A stretch of DNA of 64,000 nucleotides from an uncultured Candidatus Poseidoniales archaeon. Its GTDB lineage: Archaea > Thermoplasmatota > Poseidoniia > Poseidoniales > Thalassarchaeaceae. Under the pieces are notes generated by a model. That model was not told where the DNA came from. It made no database searches and saw only the letters and a list, made by a program, of their open reading frames with translations. The stretch is from the NCBI GenBank assembly GCA_902573015.1, contig CACGIE010000001.1:8528-72527 (forward strand), read 5' to 3'. Below are positions 5,114 to 14,078 of the stretch, piece by piece (position 1 is the first letter of the stretch; the number at the start of each line of letters is the position of its first letter). A program made the position numbers and the translations under genes.

Positions 5114-6694
5114 TCAGTTATTTTCATCGGGGATATAGAATAGTTCGACGCTGCCCGTTCCTAGCGCAACTGGTTGGCCTACGATGATGTTCTCTGTTAC
5201 TCCGGATAGGTTGTCTCTTTCTCCAATTACTCCAGCCTTCAGCAGATGTGTAACCGTGACCTCGAAAGCCGAACGTGCAAGGATGGAGTGCTTTGTCCCG
5301 CTTACACCATGACGACCAATTGCTCTAACCTCTCCACCGGTAGTCATCACATCTGAGACCATGATCAGGTGCCTCACGTCTACATCGAGACCTGCACCCT
5401 CGAGTGTATCCCACATTTCGTTAATTATCGCTTGTCTGGCGGCCTCTATACCAAGATAGTCATGTATCTCATTGATATTGTTCGTGTAAGTCCTTGATCG
5501 GTCCACTCCGTCGAACTCACTTACCTTTGATAGGTTTGAGCCGATTGTTGAGATGTAATATTCGCCTGTTTCGGACATTGGGCCCTGAACTGTAGCTCTG
5601 CTAATTCCTGGGAGACCCTTCAATCGTAGTTTCTTGATCTTGTCCTCGAGTTGCAGAAGAGCGGTGTAAGTAGGAGGGTCTGATGTAAGGGATGCAAGAT
5701 CTTCTTCCTTTGACACGCCTGGAATGATCCTTAGAGACTTTGGGCGGTCATCGTCATCGGCCTGCACATACAGTCTTAGAGCGCGTGAGAGCTTGTCTCT
5801 GACTTCTGCGCCAGTCATTTTCTTCAGCTTCATGTTTTTATTGTTTAGCTGTAGTAGTATGTTCCTCTGAGCGACATCGACGTCAATAGTTGCGATATCT
5901 ATAGCGGTGGTGGTCTCAATGGATGCTGCTAAGTCTCTAACCAACTTCTCATTAGTCCTCAGTGGCTTTCCCTTAGAATTCTTCTCGTCCATGTAAATTA
6001 TCATGGTTGGAGTTTGTGGTACCTTCCTAGCATCGACAATCTCGATTATCCTAGGTAGACCCTGGGTAACGTTTACTGTAGCCACACCTGCATAGTGGAA
6101 TGTACGCATCGTCATCTGAGTACCGGGTTCACCAATAGACTGGGCAGTGGTAATTCCTACTGCCTCGTGTGGAACGGCCTTTGCGTCATTGTAGAAGGTG
6201 CTTGCCGAATTGATTATTTTCTTGGCCTTGGCGGCTGTTACCTTCTTCTCCCCTCTGCTATGCAGCCCTTGGACAAGTTGGTCTATCATCCTTGGAGTCA
6301 AGTTTGAGTCGCTTTCCTCGGCTGCTTTGTTCAGCTGAATGAACATCTCATCTTCGATATCGACATCACGGAAGAGTTGCTTCATCTTGATTTCATAGTC
6401 GTAGTCCTGCAAAGGTAGTGAACGCTTCGTCCTCCTAGCTCTGGACACTGTTCTTCTGCGAACAATGGTCTTCTCGGTACTAGCTGCAGAAGCTCTGCTG
6501 GACTTTACTGAGCTGGCCATGACATCGTAGATTCTCTGAGAAGTTCCAGAGTCGATTCCACATATCTGGGCAATCTGACCTGGAGAGAGGCCCTTTACAT
6601 CGTCCCATTTGCGGTCATCAGCTAACTTGTGGGCATATTCCTCTTCGATTCCCAGATCCATCAGCTTCTTCTTAGTTGCACTCTTGACTACCAT
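5114..6694 (-). CDS. rpoA2: DNA-directed RNA polymerase subunit A'' with an N-terminal extension of about 130 aa
   Basis: [20 protein letters not shown] plus the C-terminal conserved blocks ([32 protein letters not shown]). 526 aa versus about 390 aa typical. Start overlaps the rpoA1 stop. Confidence 0.95.
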
Positions 6695-9600
6695 CAGTTA
6701 CCACCCCCAAGTGCATCGTTAAGCACCTGATCGACATCGAATGGACTTCCCTTTCTGCTTCTGGCAGGATCGGTCCCATCCTCTCCGTACTCGAATTGGA
6801 TAATGCGGTTTGCAGTATTTCTAACTGAGGCCTTTGTATCATTGGAAACCTTCAGATCGTCCATAGCATTGATCAGCCTTCTCTGCATGTAACCTGACTT
6901 ACTCGTTCTGACAGCCGTATCGACCAGTGATTCCCTACCGGAAACTGAAAGCATGAAGAATTCGGTTGGTTCGAGGCCTCTCTTGAAAGACGAAGAAACG
7001 AAACCCTTCTCCTTTGATCCCTTGACCTTCCTAGGGAAGTGGGAAAGGACTCTGTCTTGATATCCCCTCTCAAGACGCTTACCTCTAACTTTTGGCTGGC
7101 CAATGGACCCTGCCATCATTGCTAGATTGTCCATTGAACCTCTTGCTCCGGAGGTCGCCATAAGAACTGCTGAATTGTCATCTCCAAGTTGTGCCTTAGC
7201 GACGTTTCCAGTTTCCGCCTTTGCGGCGTCTAGGATTGTCAATATGTTCTCCTCGAGAGTCTCGTGTGGAGTTCTGCCTGGCCTTGCCTCGTACTTCCTT
7301 CCGTCCTTTCCGAACTTTTCTAGTTCGGAGTCAACACTAGCACTGGCCTCAGAGTTAATCCTCACTATCTCTTCCTTAGCCTCGGGAGGTAGGTCTTCGT
7401 CATCTATTCCAGTGGTGAATCCCATTGCTGTACAGATGGCGATTGTCATCTTTGTCATCTTATTGATGAAGTCTGCCCCCCTGTCTGTACCATGTGTCTG
7501 GACGACCGCATCTAGGAGCCGCCCATCCTCCGCTCCAATGCCTCTCTTGTCGATAGAACCAGAGACGTCTCCTTGTGATACCTTGACTTCTTCTCCAGCA
7601 CGATTCTTGAAGTTAAGAGTGAAGCCCCCCTTCACAAGAAGGCTGAAGACTTCGTTGCCCAACAGACCGGTCTGTCCGTTTCTCTCTACTGATGGAGGTA
7701 TTTCTCCCTCCCACCCAATAGAACTGAGGACATCCATTGCAACAGGCATTGGAAGGAAGGCCTCCCCGTTCGTCAAAAGGTAAGCACCCGTGATGTGATC
7801 GTGTATCCCGCCAATGACGCTGCCCCCATATCTAGGAGATATGATGTGCTCCTGGACCCTCATGAGGATTCTAGCCTCTGCCCTAGCTTCCTCACTCTGA
7901 ATTACGTGTAGGTTCATTTCGTCCCCATCAAAATCTGCATTGTAGGGCGTGCAGTCAGCAAGGTTGAATCTGAATGTCTTGCCTTCCATGACTCTTATTT
8001 CGTGAACTAGCATTGACATCCTGTGGAGTGATGGTTGTCTATTGAAAATGGTTACATCTCCGTCAATAAGGTGCCTTTCGACAACAACTCCTGGCCTTGG
8101 GTTTCCATCTCTATCGTACGTGCTTAATCGATCTTCTACTTCTGTAGGGTAGAGGTTTCCATGTTCATCCTCAATCTCTGGGCTTCCGCAGTGTGGGCAT
8201 CTCACCTCGAGGTGATCGGGAAGATAATCATCCGGATTCTCTACTTCCCACTTCCAGCGGTGATGTATTGCCGCATCTGGATCGTCTTCAGCAAGGGGGT
8301 TTCCATCTTCTCCCTCCCCTCTTAGGTTTGACAGAGTCCTATCCAAATCTACGCTCCACTCTGGAAGGAGCTCGTCTGTCATGGGGTCCCTCCGCATTTG
8401 CTCCTTCAAAACAAGACCTGGAAGGAAGTTTGGAGCCGGGAGGACCTCGTTCAAATCAGGCCTGTAACCCATGTACGGATCCTCTTCACTACCACAATGG
8501 CAATCTGGATTTAGACATCTAAATCCTGCCCAGATATACTTCGTTCTATCGGTAATCCTAACTCTGAACCTATCTCCTCTAATGATATAGTTGACACCAG
8601 GATGGACATCTGGACCCCTCAGGATCATCTGTCTGAGTTGTTCTCTGTTTCTACTAGTAGCCCTGATAGGTACAGTCAGCTCCTTGGCCGTCTTCACTGG
8701 GACTCCGACTTCGTTGATTCCGAGGTTCGGATCTGGGCTGATAACTGTTCTAGCACAGAAGTTAACTCTCTTTCCGGACAGATTACTCCTGAAGCGACCC
8801 TCCTTCCCCTTTAGCCTCTGAGATAAGGTCTTTAGTGGCCTTCCGGATCTGTGTCGAGCTGGTGGGATTCCACTGGTCTGATTATCGAAGTATGTGGTAC
8901 AATGATACTGCAGCAGTTCCCAGAGATCTTCAACTATCAGTTGTGGGGCTCCTGAATCACGATTTTCCCTGAGTCTCTGGTTAATCCTTAGAACGTCGAC
9001 TAACTTGTGTGTGAGGTCATCCTCAGATCTATCTCCACTTTCAAGAGTGATAGATGGCCTAACAGTAATTGGAGGAACTGGTAGTACCTTCATTATTGTC
9101 CATTCTGGTCTACTGACGTCTTTCTCCATTCCGAGGAATATTAGGTGCTCATCGGGTATCTTTTCGAGCCATTCTCGAATATCTCGAGCGTTCAGTTTGT
9201 GCTCTCCCTTGTCTGCCTTCTTTTCTTTGAAGGTTGTGGGCTTATCCAGAATTATCTTGCCTTGTTCCGAGCCGCAATGCATGCATATTGCACGCTTCGG
9301 ACCAGCACAAATATTCTCAATATCCTTGATGATTTTCTTGAATTCCCTACCACCAACTCCGTGCTTTAGGATTATGTCGTTCACTCTGTCTCTATAGTAG
9401 TCCTGCTCAGACTTCTCTGGATCGGTGGGATGCGTTTGCGGGGCATCGTGCAGCAAGGCCTTACTGCACGAATTGCAGGTTGTCTTCAAGCAAGTCTTGA
9501 TTAGCCCGGTGAATCCTATATGCATCACAGGTAGCTCTAGGGCTATGTGGCCGAAGTGACTTGGGCACTCTTCGTGCTTGTTCCCGCAGGTTTCACACCT

Positions 9601-9789
9601 GATTCCGGGATCGATTACTCCCATCTTCGGGTCCATGAGTCCTTGTTTGAATGCGTGACCATCGTCCTTGTAGGTGTCTGCTGTCTTTACTTCTACAGAT
9701 GACATCTTCCTTATCTCGTTTGGATCCATCAGTGTGAATCTAATCGAGTCTATTCTCTTGGGTATCTTTGCTGCATCTCGAGCACTCAT
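6694..9789 (-). CDS. rpoA1: DNA-directed RNA polymerase subunit A' with an internal Cys-rich insertion of about 145 aa
   Basis: N-terminal zinc motifs, [30 protein letters not shown] and the catalytic [12 protein letters not shown]. 1031 aa versus about 880 typical. Confidence 0.97.
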
Positions 9790-12700
9790 CTTCTATCCTC
9801 CAGTTCTAATCTCATTGCTACTCCAAGACTCTTCATTTCATCCAGGAGAAGTTTGAATGCATAGGAGGTCTGGACGCTATGGACGTCTGACCTATCGCCG
9901 CAGACAGGGCAGATTGTAGTCCTTCTCTTCCAATCGTAATATGCGATATGACCGCATCTGGGAGTGTTGCAGACCATAAGATTCCAGCCATCTGATTCAT
10001 CAAGAAGACGATCCTTGATTACCATGGATGCGCCATGAGAAATTAGACAGTCACGCTCCATCTCTCCGAATCTGAGGCCACCTTGCCTTGCTCTACCTTC
10101 TGTTGGTTGCCTAGTGAGGATTTGCACCCTTCCTCTGCTTCTAGCATGGAGTTTACTGCTAACCAGATGGTGGAGTCGCTGGTAATAGATGACGCCAACG
10201 AATGTATCGACAGGGAAACTCTCTCCTGTCTCTCCGTTAATCATCGACTCCCTACCGGTGTGCTTCAGACCGTTTCTAAGTAGGCCCGATCTGAGCGACT
10301 CTTCCTTTTCCCCGGTGAATGCGGTTCCATCTATTCTTCTGCCCTCCATGGATCCAACCTTTCCTCCGATCATCTCCAATACGTGGGCTACAGTCATTCT
10401 AGAAGGGATAGCGTGGGGATTGATGAGTAAATCAGGTATGACGCCGTCTTCTGTGAATGGCATATCTTCCTCATTTACCAGTCTACCAATTATTCCCTTT
10501 TGTCCGTGTCTGCTGGCGAACTTGTCTCCAAGTTCTGGAACCTTATTCGTCCTAAGAGTAATTCGGACTAGCCTACCTGAGTCGAGGGACTCTGTAACGA
10601 AGATGTTATCCACCCAGCCCTTCTCACCGTGACGAACGAGCATAGAGGACTCCCTCCGTTCCTGGGCCTGCAGGAATGCCCCGTGTGACTCTTCTAGGAA
10701 CCTAGGCGGGCTGGTTTTACCTACAAGGATAGATCTACCGCCTTCCTGACTGGTCAGCTCTACCTCTGGAACAGGTAGTCCGTCTCTTTCCAGATGAGAA
10801 TAAGAATCCCACGACTTGAGTCCTTTGATTTCATCAAGACCCGTGCCTGGAACCTCGATCCTCTCCTCTTGTCCGCCTGGGAATCTCTTGTTCTCTGCAT
10901 TGTAAGTCCTGACGAACGCAGATCTACCGAGGGCCCTCTCAACCGAGGCTTTGTTCATAATAACGGCGTCTTGCATGTTGTAACCGTGATGGCTGACGAT
11001 TGCAACAACGAAGTTCTGACCCCCAGGCCTTTCATCGAATTTAGTGGACTTCATAGCCCGTGTCCCCACAATTGATCTCTGGGGGTAGTGCATCACATGT
11101 GCACGGGTATCGGGTCTAAGTCTGAAATTGGCACTAGCCACTCCTAGACTCTGTTTGACCATCGCTGTTCCACCCGTAACCCTTGGTGTTGAGTTGTGTT
11201 CAGGATACGGGACTAGAGAGGCGCAAACGCCCATGATGAGTTGAGGGTCGATCTCTACGTGAGTATACACCAGAACTGTGTGATCCTTTTTCTCTTTCCT
11301 CTTGAGTGCGTCCATGTTTTCTTGGTAGTAGTTTAGTGGAACCTTGAATTTCTCTATCTTTGACTCACCATTGGGCATAGTTACTTCTGCAGACACCTCA
11401 GCATGTGATATTCCATGCTCTCCAAGGTTGGTCCACTGTACCTTTGATGGATTTATGGGACGTTTGTTCTTTGGGGATACTGAAGGCAAATCGAAAGGTC
11501 TTGGAGCTATCAAGAGGTCTTCTTCTTCTTCGGCATCTACCCATTCTACAACTCCCCCAGAGACAAGATCAGAAAATGTGATCTCGCCGCTTTCTAATGC
11601 TTCCAAGTGCATCTTTGTAATTTGCAGACTACCATGATCGATTATTAGAAGTGGGCGTAGCATCCTACCCCTATCGGTGTTGATGAAAACATCACGATTC
11701 TCATTGTCATGCCTGATACTTACCTCTGGTCTAATCCTACCTGATCTGCGTCTCCTCTTGAATTGGCTTACGAGCTTATGTGGCCTCTTGTGAAGGCCGA
11801 AGATATCTCCGTTAACATGTATCCTAGAGCCGTCTGCCCAGCCCTCGGGATTATCGTCTACTCCTGCTTCCTTCAATAATGCCTTGACATCCTCTTCGGG
11901 AACTTCCTCTGAGACGTCTATCATTTGTGCTGCATTCTTTACTAGACCACAATTTTGCCCCTCAGGAGTCTCGTTTGGACATAGTCTGCCCCATTGTGTA
12001 GGGTGCAAATCTCTTGCCTCGAAATGGGGCTGACTTCGAACGAGTGGGCTCGTGACCCTCCTCATATGAGACAGTGCAGACAAGTATGTTGTCCTATCAA
12101 GAAGTTGGCTTACTCCTGACCTCCCCCCGACCCAGTTTCCTGTAGCAAGAGCATGCATAATCTTGGTTGTAAGGACGTCAGGACGAAGGCAAGAAGAAAT
12201 TCTTAGTTCCCTCTTCCTATTGTGGTGCCTCTCCAATTGGTACTTCAAGTCTCGAGCCAGTTGCTGAAGGCTTACCCTGAAGAGATCCTCCACGAGATCC
12301 CCAGCTAGACGGACACGCTTGTTTGCGTAGTGATCCTTGTCATTAGGATCCTTATCCATGATGGCCATCTCTAGAACTTGCCTAGCAATACGACCCAGGA
12401 AAATTGCTTTCTTCTCCCTATTATCAAATTTCGATCCTAAGTGAGGCAGTAGTTCGTTATCGAGTAAGTTTTGGATTCTCGATTCTCTGTACTCCTTCTG
12501 CTGACCTGCTGCGAACTTCTTCTCCAACCAAGCTAGGGCCTCCTCAGATGTATCGACACCATACTCCTCATTATCCCTAAGATCGTTTAGGTTAGCCACG
12601 GTATACTTCATCGCCTCGGGAGGTCCTGCAATAGAGGCGAAGATATCCATATCCTTGGCTACTCCAAGTGCCCTCATCAGAAGTACCAGAGGAATGGGGG

Positions 12701-13478
12701 TAGTTCCCGCACTAGGGATCTTAACCATTAGCATTCCATCTCTTCTCTTTTCAACGTTCAGAGGCTTCCTTACGCCGTCTTTTTGGGAGAATATTTTCGC
12801 GACTTGGGTTTCATGGGCATACTTCTTGTTCTTCTCTACTGTTACCCTGTTTGGAGCGAGGTCCTCCATTGAAATCAGAACTCTCTCGGTCCCGTTGATA
12901 ATGAAGTAACCACCGGGATCAAGAGGGTCTTCGCCATACTTTCGTAGAAGTTGTGTATATCTCTCCGAATCCTCAGTAGAGGTTTCCGGGGCGAGGCGCC
13001 GATTCTCATCTGCATGGTTTGGGTTCAGGTTGCACCTAGCTGATCTAACCATTATCGGTAAATTCCCTATGTGGACGCTCGTTTCCTCCTGGAATCCCAT
13101 CTCGGATCCGGGAGATGGGGGCAAATCGTCACGAAAAATCTTGAAGTCTAGATAGACGGGTGAGAAGTAAGTAAGCTTCCTGAGTCTGCATTCCATTGGA
13201 GTTGCATGGTGTTCTGCCCCGTTGGCCTCCTTAATTGTGGGCCTGCCTAACCTAAGATTCTTTAGTCGGACAATGATTTCTTTATCTAAAAGATCGAGTT
13301 TGACTAATCCTCCCTCGTCATCTTCTACTGGTTCGTCACTACCGATTCTAATGTTCCGTACGATGTTCTCCATCCTACTCTCCTTACCGTCTCCGATAGG
13401 TATGCAGTCGTTGTACGAAGCAAGTTGGTGGTTCACTAGGCTTCTATGCTTGAAATAACTCTCAACAATCTCTCTCAA
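9786..13478 (-). CDS. rpoB: DNA-directed RNA polymerase subunit B (unsplit)
   Basis: 1230 aa. GGYFIINGTERV, RQPTEGRARQGGLRFGEMERDC and a C-terminal Zn motif CNTPRCG...CPVCG. A single ORF, not the B'/B'' split. Confidence 0.97.
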   Translation of the reverse strand: MREIVESYFKHRSLVNHQLASYNDCIPIGDGKESRMENIVRNIRIGSDEPVEDDEGGLVKLDLLDKEIIVRLKNLRLGRPTIKEANGAEHHATPMECRLRKLTYFSPVYLDFKIFRDDLPPSPGSEMGFQEETSVHIGNLPIMVRSARCNLNPNHADENRRLAPETSTEDSERYTQLLRKYGEDPLDPGGYFIINGTERVLISMEDLAPNRVTVEKNKKYAHETQVAKIFSQKDGVRKPLNVEKRRDGMLMVKIPSAGTTPIPLVLLMRALGVAKDMDIFASIAGPPEAMKYTVANLNDLRDNEEYGVDTSEEALAWLEKKFAAGQQKEYRESRIQNLLDNELLPHLGSKFDNREKKAIFLGRIARQVLEMAIMDKDPNDKDHYANKRVRLAGDLVEDLFRVSLQQLARDLKYQLERHHNRKRELRISSCLRPDVLTTKIMHALATGNWVGGRSGVSQLLDRTTYLSALSHMRRVTSPLVRSQPHFEARDLHPTQWGRLCPNETPEGQNCGLVKNAAQMIDVSEEVPEEDVKALLKEAGVDDNPEGWADGSRIHVNGDIFGLHKRPHKLVSQFKRRRRSGRIRPEVSIRHDNENRDVFINTDRGRMLRPLLIIDHGSLQITKMHLEALESGEITFSDLVSGGVVEWVDAEEEEDLLIAPRPFDLPSVSPKNKRPINPSKVQWTNLGEHGISHAEVSAEVTMPNGESKIEKFKVPLNYYQENMDALKRKEKKDHTVLVYTHVEIDPQLIMGVCASLVPYPEHNSTPRVTGGTAMVKQSLGVASANFRLRPDTRAHVMHYPQRSIVGTRAMKSTKFDERPGGQNFVVAIVSHHGYNMQDAVIMNKASVERALGRSAFVRTYNAENKRFPGGQEERIEVPGTGLDEIKGLKSWDSYSHLERDGLPVPEVELTSQEGGRSILVGKTSPPRFLEESHGAFLQAQERRESSMLVRHGEKGWVDNIFVTESLDSGRLVRITLRTNKVPELGDKFASRHGQKGIIGRLVNEEDMPFTEDGVIPDLLINPHAIPSRMTVAHVLEMIGGKVGSMEGRRIDGTAFTGEKEESLRSGLLRNGLKHTGRESMINGETGESFPVDTFVGVIYYQRLHHLVSSKLHARSRGRVQILTRQPTEGRARQGGLRFGEMERDCLISHGASMVIKDRLLDESDGWNLMVCNTPRCGHIAYYDWKRRTTICPVCGDRSDVHSVQTSYAFKLLLDEMKSLGVAMRLELEDRR

Positions 13479-13490
13479 TTAAATTCCTCC

Positions 13491-14078
13491 TTACGCGCTC
13501 TCCACAATTAGCCTGAATGCCACTGATTGTCCTGCAGATCTACTGTATCGAACGACTTTGACAACTCTATTTGCTAGCCATCCGGCAGGAAGTTCATCGT
13601 TCTCAGATTCTTCGACCTCTTTGATAACCTGAATTGCAGGATCGGTAATCAGAATTTTCGGCAGGAGTTCCTTTGCGAGCCTGTTCTTTCCAAAGGCATC
13701 ATCCGTTATGAGCCCCCATGGCTCAAGAATCTGTGCTTCATCCTCGATTGGGACTAGTTCATGATGAGGCACGAGTACATGGTTAAGCACATTGAATCTG
13801 TAGTCTCCAGTAGGGATGTCCTCATCCAGAAGTGCCTTTCGGGAGATAGTGATTCTGTTACTCTTACTCCTCTTACGAGAGCCAACATGTTCACTAATAA
13901 CGCCCATGATATGCTCAAGTTCGGAGACCCCATCCTCAAGGCCGACCTTTTTCGCGACCTGCTCCCTGGACATTCTCTTTATTGCGTCCAGATTTGCGTC
14001 GTCCGCCAACTTGTGTGCGTGATCCTCCGGGATCCCCAGCTCTATCAATCTCTTTTTTGTTGAGCTCTTTACTGCCAT
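13491..14078 (-). CDS. rpoH: DNA-directed RNA polymerase subunit H with an N-terminal extension of about 105 aa
   Basis: The C-terminal ~85 aa (NVLNHVLVPHHELV...LPKILITDPAIQ...VVKVVRYSRSAGQSVAFRLIV) match the RpoH/Rpb5 C-domain. 195 aa versus about 80 typical. First gene of the rpoH-B-A'-A'' order. Confidence 0.85.
   Translation of the reverse strand: MAVKSSTKKRLIELGIPEDHAHKLADDANLDAIKRMSREQVAKKVGLEDGVSELEHIMGVISEHVGSRKRSKSNRITISRKALLDEDIPTGDYRFNVLNHVLVPHHELVPIEDEAQILEPWGLITDDAFGKNRLAKELLPKILITDPAIQVIKEVEESENDELPAGWLANRVVKVVRYSRSAGQSVAFRLIVESA

What the first reader, a model, noticed from the sequence alone, without database searches (positions are those of the whole stretch)
8092..8526. ~145-aa Cys-rich insertion in RpoA' between the conserved ...[10 protein letters not shown]... 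and ...[10 protein letters not shown]... blocks
Residues ~422-566 read [12 protein letters not shown] ... [19 protein letters not shown] ... and have no counterpart in the archaeal/eukaryotic consensus as I remember it. Sulfolobus A' and yeast Rpb1 have only about 15-20 residues there. The insert starts and ends with Cys pairs (Cx4CxC ... CxxC), consistent with a split zinc ribbon enclosing an acidic, Pro/Asp-rich loop. In Rpb1 the homologous segment belongs to the dock region near the RNA exit and the TFIIB-ribbon binding surface. That placement rests on my memory of the alignment and is inference.
Basis: partly seen in the sequence, partly recalled or inferred. Interest (0 to 1): 0.6.

Follow-up and report, generated by a model that had tools for sequence, protein, structure and literature searches.

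The report
Zinc-binding domain inserted in RNA polymerase dock
The largest RNA polymerase subunit of the abundant ocean archaea Marine Group II carries an extra, conserved, acidic domain of about 145 residues with four invariant cysteines, placed beside the site where initiation factor TFB docks; I found no other lineage that has it and no paper in the library searched that describes it.

Summary
RpoA' (Rpo1N; window 6694-9789, minus strand, 1031 aa) has about 145 residues (aa 421-566, window 8092-8529) where Pyrococcus has about 7 and yeast Rpb1 about 11.

- Distribution: present in 372 of 401 Poseidoniales (Marine Group II) genomes searched, including 67 of 67 high-quality ones. It is missing from all 20 other Thermoplasmatota that I aligned, including the sister order.
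- Uniqueness: a profile search of 1.84 billion proteins found the domain only in this subunit or its fragments.
- Conservation: four Cys are invariant (C425, C430, C531, C534; Cx4C...CxxC). Motifs APNFLPG, CPHCGS and EDRLxTxD are also invariant. dN/dS is about 0.02-0.05 in the two pairs where dS could be estimated.
- Structure: AlphaFold predicts a compact alpha/beta domain (pLDDT 80-94 in context), not a loop. No solved structure matched it.
- Charge: net -9 to -22, while the rest of A' is +3.
- Position: a co-fold places the TFB zinc ribbon on residues 401-420, directly before the insert, and touching P451 inside it. This pass may reflect memory of solved Pol II-TFIIB complexes.

Best reading: a lineage-specific, probably zinc-stabilised extension of the dock that acts as a protein-interaction surface at the TFB and RNA-exit face. 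The function is inferred. First readers of this scan noted the same insert in at least eight other genomes.

The parts
6694..9789 (-). rpoA' (rpo1N), the N-terminal part of the largest RNA polymerase subunit, 1031 aa. Its start overlaps the rpoB stop and its stop overlaps the rpoA'' start.
   Evidence: ORF list and translation. Pfam Rpb1 domains 1-5 at E 1e-97 to 7e-20. PDB Rpo1N hits at E about 1e-277. Overlap sequences shown.
8092..8529 (-). The inserted domain, residues 421-566, about 145 aa, net charge -22, pI 4.3.
   Evidence: Gap in the alignments to all solved RNAPs. Outgroup alignment. Charge. Coordinates checked by translation.
8530..8589 (-). Canonical dock strand and helix (residues 401-420, [20 protein letters not shown]) directly before the insert. 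This is the predicted TFB zinc-ribbon contact surface.
   Evidence: Co-fold interface residues 72, 79-84, 86-87 and 90-91 of the 330-659 segment correspond to 401, 408-413, 415-416 and 419-420. Translation.
8500..8517 (-). First Cys knuckle, CLNPDC (C425, C430; Cx4C). Both Cys are invariant. The following C432 is variable.
   Evidence: Alignments A2 and A3 of 32 sequences. Translation.
8416..8436 (-). Invariant motif APNFLPG (residues 452-458). The preceding P451 is the only insert residue that confidently touches the TFB ribbon in the co-fold.
   Evidence: Invariant columns. Interface residue 122 of the segment corresponds to P451.
8182..8199 (-). Second Cys knuckle, CPHCGS (C531, C534; CxxC), invariant.
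   Evidence: All 32 members give sub-threshold zinc-ribbon Pfam matches on this knuckle.
8113..8136 (-). Invariant C-terminal motif EDRLxTxD (residues 552-559), which leads back into the conserved PG-VVERH strand.

Best explanation
The segment is a lineage-specific sequence insertion: an independently folding alpha/beta domain of about 16 kDa spliced into the tip loop of the dock domain of Rpo1N. It was acquired once in the ancestor of Poseidoniales (Marine Group II) and has been kept under strong purifying selection.

Its base is probably clamped by a structural zinc ion held by four invariant cysteines. C425 and C430 lie just after the entry strand. C531 and C534 lie about 100 residues later. 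The enclosed module therefore projects from the polymerase surface.

The domain is strongly acidic, so it is unlikely to bind DNA or RNA. It sits at the rim of the surface where the TFB zinc ribbon docks, which is also the surface the nascent RNA runs along as it exits. It does not cover that site.

I propose that it works as a built-in protein-interaction platform that enlarges the dock. It would modulate TFB-dependent recruitment and/or TFB release at promoter escape, or recruit a lineage-specific partner to the RNA-exit face.

Shown here: the insertion, its position, its distribution, its conservation, its charge and a confident predicted fold. Inferred: zinc binding, the spatial relation to TFB (prediction only) and the function.

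My odds: real folded surface domain of RNAP about 0.9; binds Zn through the four Cys about 0.75; main role in initiation or TFB handling about 0.35.
For: Insertion and site:
- PDB alignments leave residues 420-566 unmatched.
- The context model aligns to all RNAP structures over only 160-182 of 330 residues at Z about 15-16.

Lineage restriction:
- Every same-order genome aligns through the insert. All 163 other Thermoplasmatota genomes searched give split matches only.
- 20 outgroups aligned by MAFFT have 8-10 residues at this position.
- 372 of 401 order genomes match, and 67 of 67 high-quality ones do.
- 406 loci were found in the species genome collection. The best 80 that carry a specific lineage name are all titled Marine Group II, Poseidoniales or Thalassarchaeaceae.
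- An exhaustive HMM search of 1.84e9 proteins gave 26 hits. The two long ones are A' subunits. The 13 of the 24 short ones that I read are fragments or frameshifted pieces of A'.

Selection:
- Invariant C425, C430, C531 and C534 plus several motifs.
- dS is saturated in most pairs. In the two pairs where it could be estimated, omega is 0.02-0.05.

Fold:
- pLDDT 76.8 when folded alone, and 80-94 across the insert when folded in context.

Charge:
- Net -9 to -22 and pI 4.3-4.7, against +3 and pI 8.1 for the rest of A'.

Zinc-knuckle likeness:
- All 32 members give sub-threshold zinc-ribbon Pfam matches on CPHCGS.

Neighbourhood of the TFB site:
- Co-fold of A' 330-659 with TFB residues 3-50: score 0.62, best of 3 controls 0.01.
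- That mark was reached by 58 of 80 solved complexes and 2 of 110 mismatched pairs.
- The three runs agree in at least 82% of contacts, and the partner's pLDDT is at least 63.
- The interface covers 401, 408-413, 415-416 and 419-420, plus P451 of the insert.
- Like complexes (Pol II-TFIIB) are solved, so this pass may come from memory. It shows likeness, not binding.

Literature:
- The TFB ribbon binds the RNAP dock and recruits RNAP (PMC7289017, PMC13502027).
- RNA exits along the dock (PMC7111264).

No RNA-level excision seen:
- Contigs from four metatranscriptome runs of one study bridge both junctions with no joint that skips the insert. This is weak evidence, because DNA carry-over is not excluded.
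Against: - No metal or structural data exist.
- No Pfam zinc-ribbon family reaches its gathering score.
- In the co-fold only one insert residue touches the ribbon with confidence. The TFB ribbon is itself acidic. A direct insert-ribbon role is therefore weakly supported.
- The TFB ribbon of this clade has no indel or obvious matching change.
- No partner protein was identified.
- The insert evolves about twice as fast as the core (61% against 79% mean identity).
Confidence: 0.6

Rival explanations
1. The domain serves the elongation or termination side rather than initiation. From the rim of the RNA exit channel it would steer nascent RNA by charge repulsion. Alternatively it would dock a post-initiation partner, such as termination factor aCPSF1/FttA, Spt4/5, the Rpo4/7 stalk, or a trailing ribosome.
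For: RNA leaves the enzyme along the dock (PMC7111264). The domain is strongly acidic. In the co-fold it barely touches the TFB ribbon, with a single contact.
Against: No partner was tested, and nothing in the sequence points to RNA-processing or ribosome contacts. The position relative to the exit path could not be measured without coordinates.
Confidence: 0.25
2. The domain has a purely architectural role. An extra zinc-clamped domain would stabilise or help assemble the enzyme in this lineage, for example by buttressing the dock against Rpo2 or the Rpo3/11 platform, without any factor-binding function.
For: Invariant Cys4 and buried-looking hydrophobic motifs such as APNFLPG and HxRW. High pLDDT only when the RNAP context is present (80-94 against 76.8 alone) suggests packing against the core.
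Against: Related Thermoplasmatota, including the sister order, do without it. A conserved net charge of -9 to -22 over a 16-kDa surface domain is more than a buttress would need.
Confidence: 0.12
3. The segment is a mini-intein or other self-removing or mobile element, so the mature polymerase lacks it.
For: Its size of about 145 aa is in the mini-intein range. Inteins are known in archaeal RNAP subunit genes (from my own knowledge).
Against: The junctions lack the intein signature: the insert begins A-G-F and ends N-P-R-P followed by G, with no His-Asn followed by Cys, Ser or Thr. There is no Hint or intein Pfam hit even at E<=1. No Hint-fold match appeared in the PDB searches. It lies in a surface loop, not a catalytic motif. 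It is fixed in 372 genomes with lineage-wide co-divergence. Its GC content is not anomalous.
Confidence: 0.02
4. The segment is a non-functional, tolerated loop expansion made of low-complexity acidic sequence.
For: The segment is acidic and rich in Pro and Asp. It evolves faster than the core.
Against: 32 invariant positions including four Cys. Omega of 0.02-0.05 in the two measurable pairs. A confident predicted fold with defined strands and helices. Length conserved within about 8 residues across the order.
Confidence: 0.03

Closest known systems
Canonical dock domain of Rpb1 / Rpo1N, the binding site of the TFIIB/TFB zinc ribbon
   Same: The insert lies inside this domain, replacing the short loop that corresponds to Rpb1 residues about 418-428. 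The strand and helix predicted to bind the TFB ribbon (residues 401-420) are retained (PMC7289017, PMC13502027).
   Different: Every solved archaeal and eukaryotic enzyme has 7-25 residues at this point. Here there is a 145-residue Cys4 domain.
Lineage-specific sequence insertions of bacterial RNAP beta and beta' (SI1, SI2, SI3, the Thermus beta' non-conserved domain; BEAN and HABAS domains, PMC11515920)
   Same: An independently folded domain spliced into a surface loop of a universally conserved large subunit. It is restricted to one lineage and follows the organismal tree.
   Different: It occurs in an archaeon, in the dock. It is cysteine-rich. Foldseek and VIA-align returned no structural match, so membership in the BBM2/SBHM, BEAN or HABAS fold classes was neither shown nor excluded. 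That paper treats archaeal domains as shared by all archaea and does not mention zinc, the dock or Poseidoniales.
'Dock II' domain of metazoan Pol I subunit RPA1 (PMC9438803)
   Same: A lineage-restricted domain built into the largest subunit. It does not bind DNA and is proposed to be a factor-docking platform.
   Different: Despite its name it sits in the foot (human RPA1 residues 1060-1155), not the dock. It is a truncated HMG box with a basic patch and has no zinc site.
Bacterial beta' zinc-binding domain at the RNA exit channel (from my own knowledge; not tested here)
   Same: A Cys4 zinc element of the largest subunit that borders the RNA exit path.
   Different: It is N-terminal, small, basic and universal in bacteria, and it contacts nucleic acid. 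The present domain is acidic, encloses a module of about 100 residues, and lies on the dock.

Membership tests
RpoA' / Rpo1N (largest RNAP subunit, N-terminal part) | Pfam Rpb1 domains 1-5 in order, above the gathering scores | tested here: met
   PF04997, PF00623, PF04983, PF05000 and PF04998 at 324, 205, 92, 80 and 72 bits.
RpoA' / Rpo1N (largest RNAP subunit, N-terminal part) | Catalytic NADFDGD motif and the NRQPSLH block | tested here: met
   Both are present in the translation and aligned to PDB chains.
RpoA' / Rpo1N (largest RNAP subunit, N-terminal part) | Operon context rpoB - rpoA' - rpoA'' | tested here: met
   Flanking ORFs at 9786-13478 (RpoB, PDB E=0) and 5114-6694.
Dock-domain insertion (position) | Lies between the residues that align to Rpb1 about 415-417 and 429 | tested here: met
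   phmmer stretches: query 412 aligns to Rpb1 415 in 9mu7, and query 567 aligns to yeast Rpb1 429 in 1i3q. That these residues belong to the 'dock' rests on my memory of the published Pol II domain map.
Dock-domain insertion (position) | Adjacent to the TFB/TFIIB ribbon-binding surface | tested here: met
   Co-fold score 0.62 against a best control of 0.01. The interface is 401-420 plus P451. This is a prediction only and may come from memory of solved Pol II-TFIIB complexes.
Cys4 zinc ribbon / zinc knuckle domain | Two Cys pairs (CxnC) conserved among relatives | tested here: met
   C425, C430, C531 and C534 are invariant in 32 sequences whose inserts are 50-90% identical to the window's.
Cys4 zinc ribbon / zinc knuckle domain | Match to a curated zinc-ribbon family above its cut-off | tested here: not met
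   The best matches are PF23451, PF13248 and PF24463 at 16-18 bits against cut-offs of 27-28. They cover only the second knuckle.
Cys4 zinc ribbon / zinc knuckle domain | The four Cys converge on one metal, and zinc is bound | not testable with these tools
Intein (Hint domain) | N-terminal Cys, Ser or Ala at the junction, and C-terminal His-Asn followed by Cys, Ser or Thr | tested here: not met
   The junctions read W-A-G-F-R-C at the start and N-P-R-P-G-V-V at the end.
Intein (Hint domain) | Hint fold or an intein Pfam family | tested here: inconclusive
   No intein Pfam hit at E<=1. No Hint structure appears among the Foldseek or VIA results. Absence from a fold search does not exclude the fold.
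Bacterial-type RNAP insertion folds (BBM2/SBHM, BEAN, HABAS) | Structural match to those domains in solved bacterial RNAPs | tested here: inconclusive
   Foldseek best E 0.77, and VIA-align wide found no Z>=2. A missing match does not show that the fold differs.

The most novel reading that the evidence does not exclude
The insert is a built-in, cis-acting initiation-factor-like module. By flanking the TFB-ribbon site it would change how RNAP is recruited to TBP/TFB promoters, or how TFB is expelled at promoter escape. It might also select among the two to three TFB paralogues of this clade. Marine Group II would then have a mechanistically distinct variant of archaeal transcription initiation.
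Probability: 0.2. Interest if true: 0.7.

Novelty: new variant of a known kind. Interest (0 to 1): 0.55.

Why it matters
Lineage-specific insertion domains are a well-studied theme in bacterial RNA polymerase. In the literature I could search, the archaeal enzyme is treated as architecturally uniform. Here a whole, ecologically dominant archaeal order carries a conserved 16-kDa domain. The domain has no detectable relative outside this subunit and no match among solved structures. It lies on the surface that recruits the enzyme to promoters and past which the transcript exits.

Earlier notes of this scan also report extra N-terminal modules on RpoH and RpoA'' of the same genome. Together these suggest an unusually decorated archaeal polymerase.

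The finding gives a concrete, testable handle on transcription in an uncultured group: zinc content, deletion in recombinant enzyme, and cryo-EM. It also gives a clean molecular synapomorphy for Poseidoniales.

Tried and rejected
- Fold searches with the insert-only model found nothing usable. Foldseek against PDB had a best E of 0.77. VIA-align against 48,161 chains gave no Z>=2. ESM Atlas returned only RNAP clusters at TM<=0.42.
- The protein-language look-alike search, with RNAP families excluded, had a best score of 0.75, which is below chance level.
- The profile search against PDB sequences gave only a spurious repeat hit (Tako8) and a non-significant Spt4 zinc-ribbon match at E 0.48.
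- The intein reading was rejected; see the rival explanations.
- 'Dock II' of Pol I, recalled as a possible homologous site, turned out to lie in the foot.
- I tested whether the insert compensates for a missing factor. PF02002 (TFE-alpha) was not detected in 21 of 22 high-quality Poseidoniales genomes. It was equally undetected or weak in many Thermoplasmatota families that lack the insert (f19 7 of 8, f6 10 of 14). There is therefore no specific correlation, and the Pfam model may simply miss divergent TFE.
- dN/dS could not be computed in most pairs because dS is saturated.
- The metatranscriptome contigs show continuity across the insert, but they cannot prove transcription or rule out DNA carry-over.
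- Literature searches for a prior description (terms: Marine Group II or Poseidoniales, RNA polymerase, insertion, zinc, dock) found none. This library does not hold most subscription-journal papers.

Full report
**What is there.** The window carries the archaeal RNA polymerase operon on the minus strand: rpoB (9786-13478), rpoA' (6694-9789) and rpoA'' (5114-6694). The rpoA' product is 1031 aa and matches Pfam Rpb1 domains 1 to 5.

In a phmmer search of PDB sequences, Pyrococcus furiosus Rpo1N aligns to residues 10-419 (chain 5-401) and again from 567 (chain 409). About 147 residues here therefore stand where that enzyme has about 7. Yeast Rpb1 resumes at residue 429 opposite our 567, and another Rpb1 reaches 415 opposite our 412.

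**Who has it.** Public record titles of the closest loci name the clade. They read Marine Group II euryarchaeote, Candidatus Poseidoniales or Candidatus Thalassarchaeaceae. This fits the taxonomy of Rinke et al. (PMC6461757).

- In a sample of 201 genomes of the phylum, all 38 members of the window's order aligned through the insert. The exception was one truncated at a contig end. All 163 genomes outside the order gave only split matches to the flanks, including the two of the sister order in the same class.
- I fetched 20 of those outgroups and aligned them. Each has 8-10 residues at the site.
- Across 401 genomes of the order, 372 have the gene segment, including 67 of 67 high-quality genomes. 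Nearly all are single full-length matches at E below 1e-130. The one weak match that I checked (G196) lies at a contig end, and the other few weak ones may be truncated in the same way.
- A scan of one genome per prokaryotic species found 406 loci encoding the insert.
- An exhaustive HMMER profile search of 1.84 billion representative proteins found only 26 hits. The two long ones are A' subunits. The 13 of the 24 short ones that I read are fragments or frameshifted pieces of A' that still carry the flanking RNAP motifs.

The domain therefore has no detectable free-standing relative and no relative in another protein context. By parsimony it arose once at the base of Poseidoniales.

**Is it constrained.**
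- In 32 sequences whose inserts are 50-90% identical to the window's, 32 positions are invariant. These include C425, C430, C531 and C534, and the motifs GFRC, APNFLPG, CPHCGS and EDRLxTxD.
- Indels are confined to three short loops.
- Mean pairwise identity is 61% in the insert against 79% in the rest of A'. Synonymous sites are saturated in most pairs. In the two pairs where dS could be estimated, omega is 0.02 and 0.05 in the insert, against 0.009 and 0.037 in the rest.
- GC content is unremarkable.
- Contigs from four marine metatranscriptome runs of one study bridge both junctions with no joint that removes the insert. This is weak evidence, because DNA in RNA libraries cannot be excluded.

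**What it looks like.** AlphaFold2 on the insert alone gives pLDDT 76.8. Folded within residues 330-659, the insert scores 80-94 throughout. It shows a strand at the first Cys knuckle and a hairpin at 461-480. Helices lie at 444-449, 482-489 and 504-517. Three short strands follow the second knuckle. It is therefore predicted to be a compact alpha/beta domain whose entry and exit are pinned by the two Cys pairs, not a loop.

- Against all solved RNAPs, the context model aligns over only 160-182 of its 330 residues (Z about 15-16). No archaeal, Pol I, Pol II or Pol III enzyme has a counterpart.
- The isolated domain matched nothing in the PDB or the ESM Atlas. It matched no Pfam family above threshold. 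All 32 members give sub-threshold zinc-ribbon matches on CPHCGS.
- The domain is strongly acidic in all members: net -9 to -22, pI 4.3-4.7. The remainder of A' is net +3 with pI 8.1.

**Where it sits.** The insertion replaces the loop that corresponds to Rpb1 residues about 418-428. From my memory of the published Pol II domain map, this belongs to the dock.

Independent support comes from a co-fold of residues 330-659 with the N-terminal zinc ribbon of the genome's own TFB.

- The score is 0.62 and the best of three controls is 0.01. That mark was reached by 58 of 80 solved complexes and 2 of 110 mismatched pairs.
- The three runs agree in at least 82% of contacts, and the partner's pLDDT is at least 63.
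- The ribbon lies on Y401, the strand 408-413, R415, T416, I419 and W420. This is the segment immediately before the insert.
- Only P451, next to the invariant APNFLPG motif, touches the ribbon with confidence.
- Pol II-TFIIB complexes are solved, so this pass may come from memory. It shows that the canonical ribbon site is retained and not occluded, and that the insert borders it. It does not show binding.

The literature states that the TFB ribbon recruits RNAP through the dock (PMC7289017, PMC13502027). It also states that RNA exits along the dock (PMC7111264).

**How it most likely works.** I read it as a zinc-clamped, acidic extension of the dock that offers a new protein-binding surface at the initiation and RNA-exit face. 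It could modulate TFB recruitment or release, or bring in a lineage-specific partner. The charge argues against nucleic-acid binding.

The main rival is a post-initiation role at the RNA exit, in termination, Spt4/5 or stalk contacts, or ribosome coupling. It is not excluded, because the insert makes only one predicted contact with the ribbon and the ribbon is itself acidic. A purely architectural role is possible. Intein and junk-loop readings are rejected on junction residues, conservation and predicted fold.

**Known or new.** The kind of feature is well known in bacteria: a lineage-specific domain inserted in a large RNAP subunit (PMC11515920). Metazoan Pol I offers a conceptual parallel in its 'dock II' platform, which however lies in the foot (PMC9438803). 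An insertion in the archaeal dock, with this Cys4 architecture and no relative outside this subunit, was not described in any paper I could find. The proteins are in public databases, annotated simply as subunit A'. First readers of this scan noted the same insert in at least eight other genomes, which fits its order-wide distribution. I class it as a new variant of a known kind.

Noticed in passing
window 11268-11486 (-), RpoB residues 665-737: RpoB (1230 aa) has about 73 extra residues, with no Cys and mixed or basic in character, between the positions that align to P. furiosus Rpo2 630 and 634. All Poseidoniales sampled align through this segment. Most other Thermoplasmatota give split matches with almost no spacer. 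Some families align through part of it, and one genome (G095) aligns through all of it at 49% identity. It is therefore a variable region and not strictly clade-specific.
   Followed up: partly
G000 contig C13 (L163:1474-2397, +) and relatives: The TFB orthologue (307 aa, canonical ribbon) is 84-100% identical across the whole order, far more conserved than A' (about 68-70% between families). Most genomes of the order also carry a second TFB paralogue at about 38% identity, and often a third ribbon-containing ORF. The window's own genome, 63% complete, shows only one.
   Followed up: partly
Poseidoniales genomes, six-frame Pfam search: The Pfam TFIIE_alpha family (PF02002) was not detected in 21 of 22 high-quality Poseidoniales genomes. 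It was also missing or weak in many other Thermoplasmatota families. Either TFE-alpha is very divergent in much of the phylum or it is absent.
   Followed up: no
window 9786-9789 and 6694: The rpoB stop overlaps the rpoA' start (ATGA), and the rpoA' stop overlaps the rpoA'' start by one base (TGATG). This suggests translational coupling along the operon.
   Followed up: no
outgroup genomes G199, G142, G080: Some non-Poseidoniales Thermoplasmatota have open frames of 1600-1980 aa over the A' match. This may mean a fused A'-A'' gene.
   Followed up: no
window 5114-6694 and about 13764-14078 (notes of earlier agents): Earlier notes of this scan report extra N-terminal modules on RpoA'' and RpoH of this genome. 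With the A' dock insert and the RpoB segment, the enzyme would have four lineage-associated additions. I did not re-test those notes.
   Followed up: no
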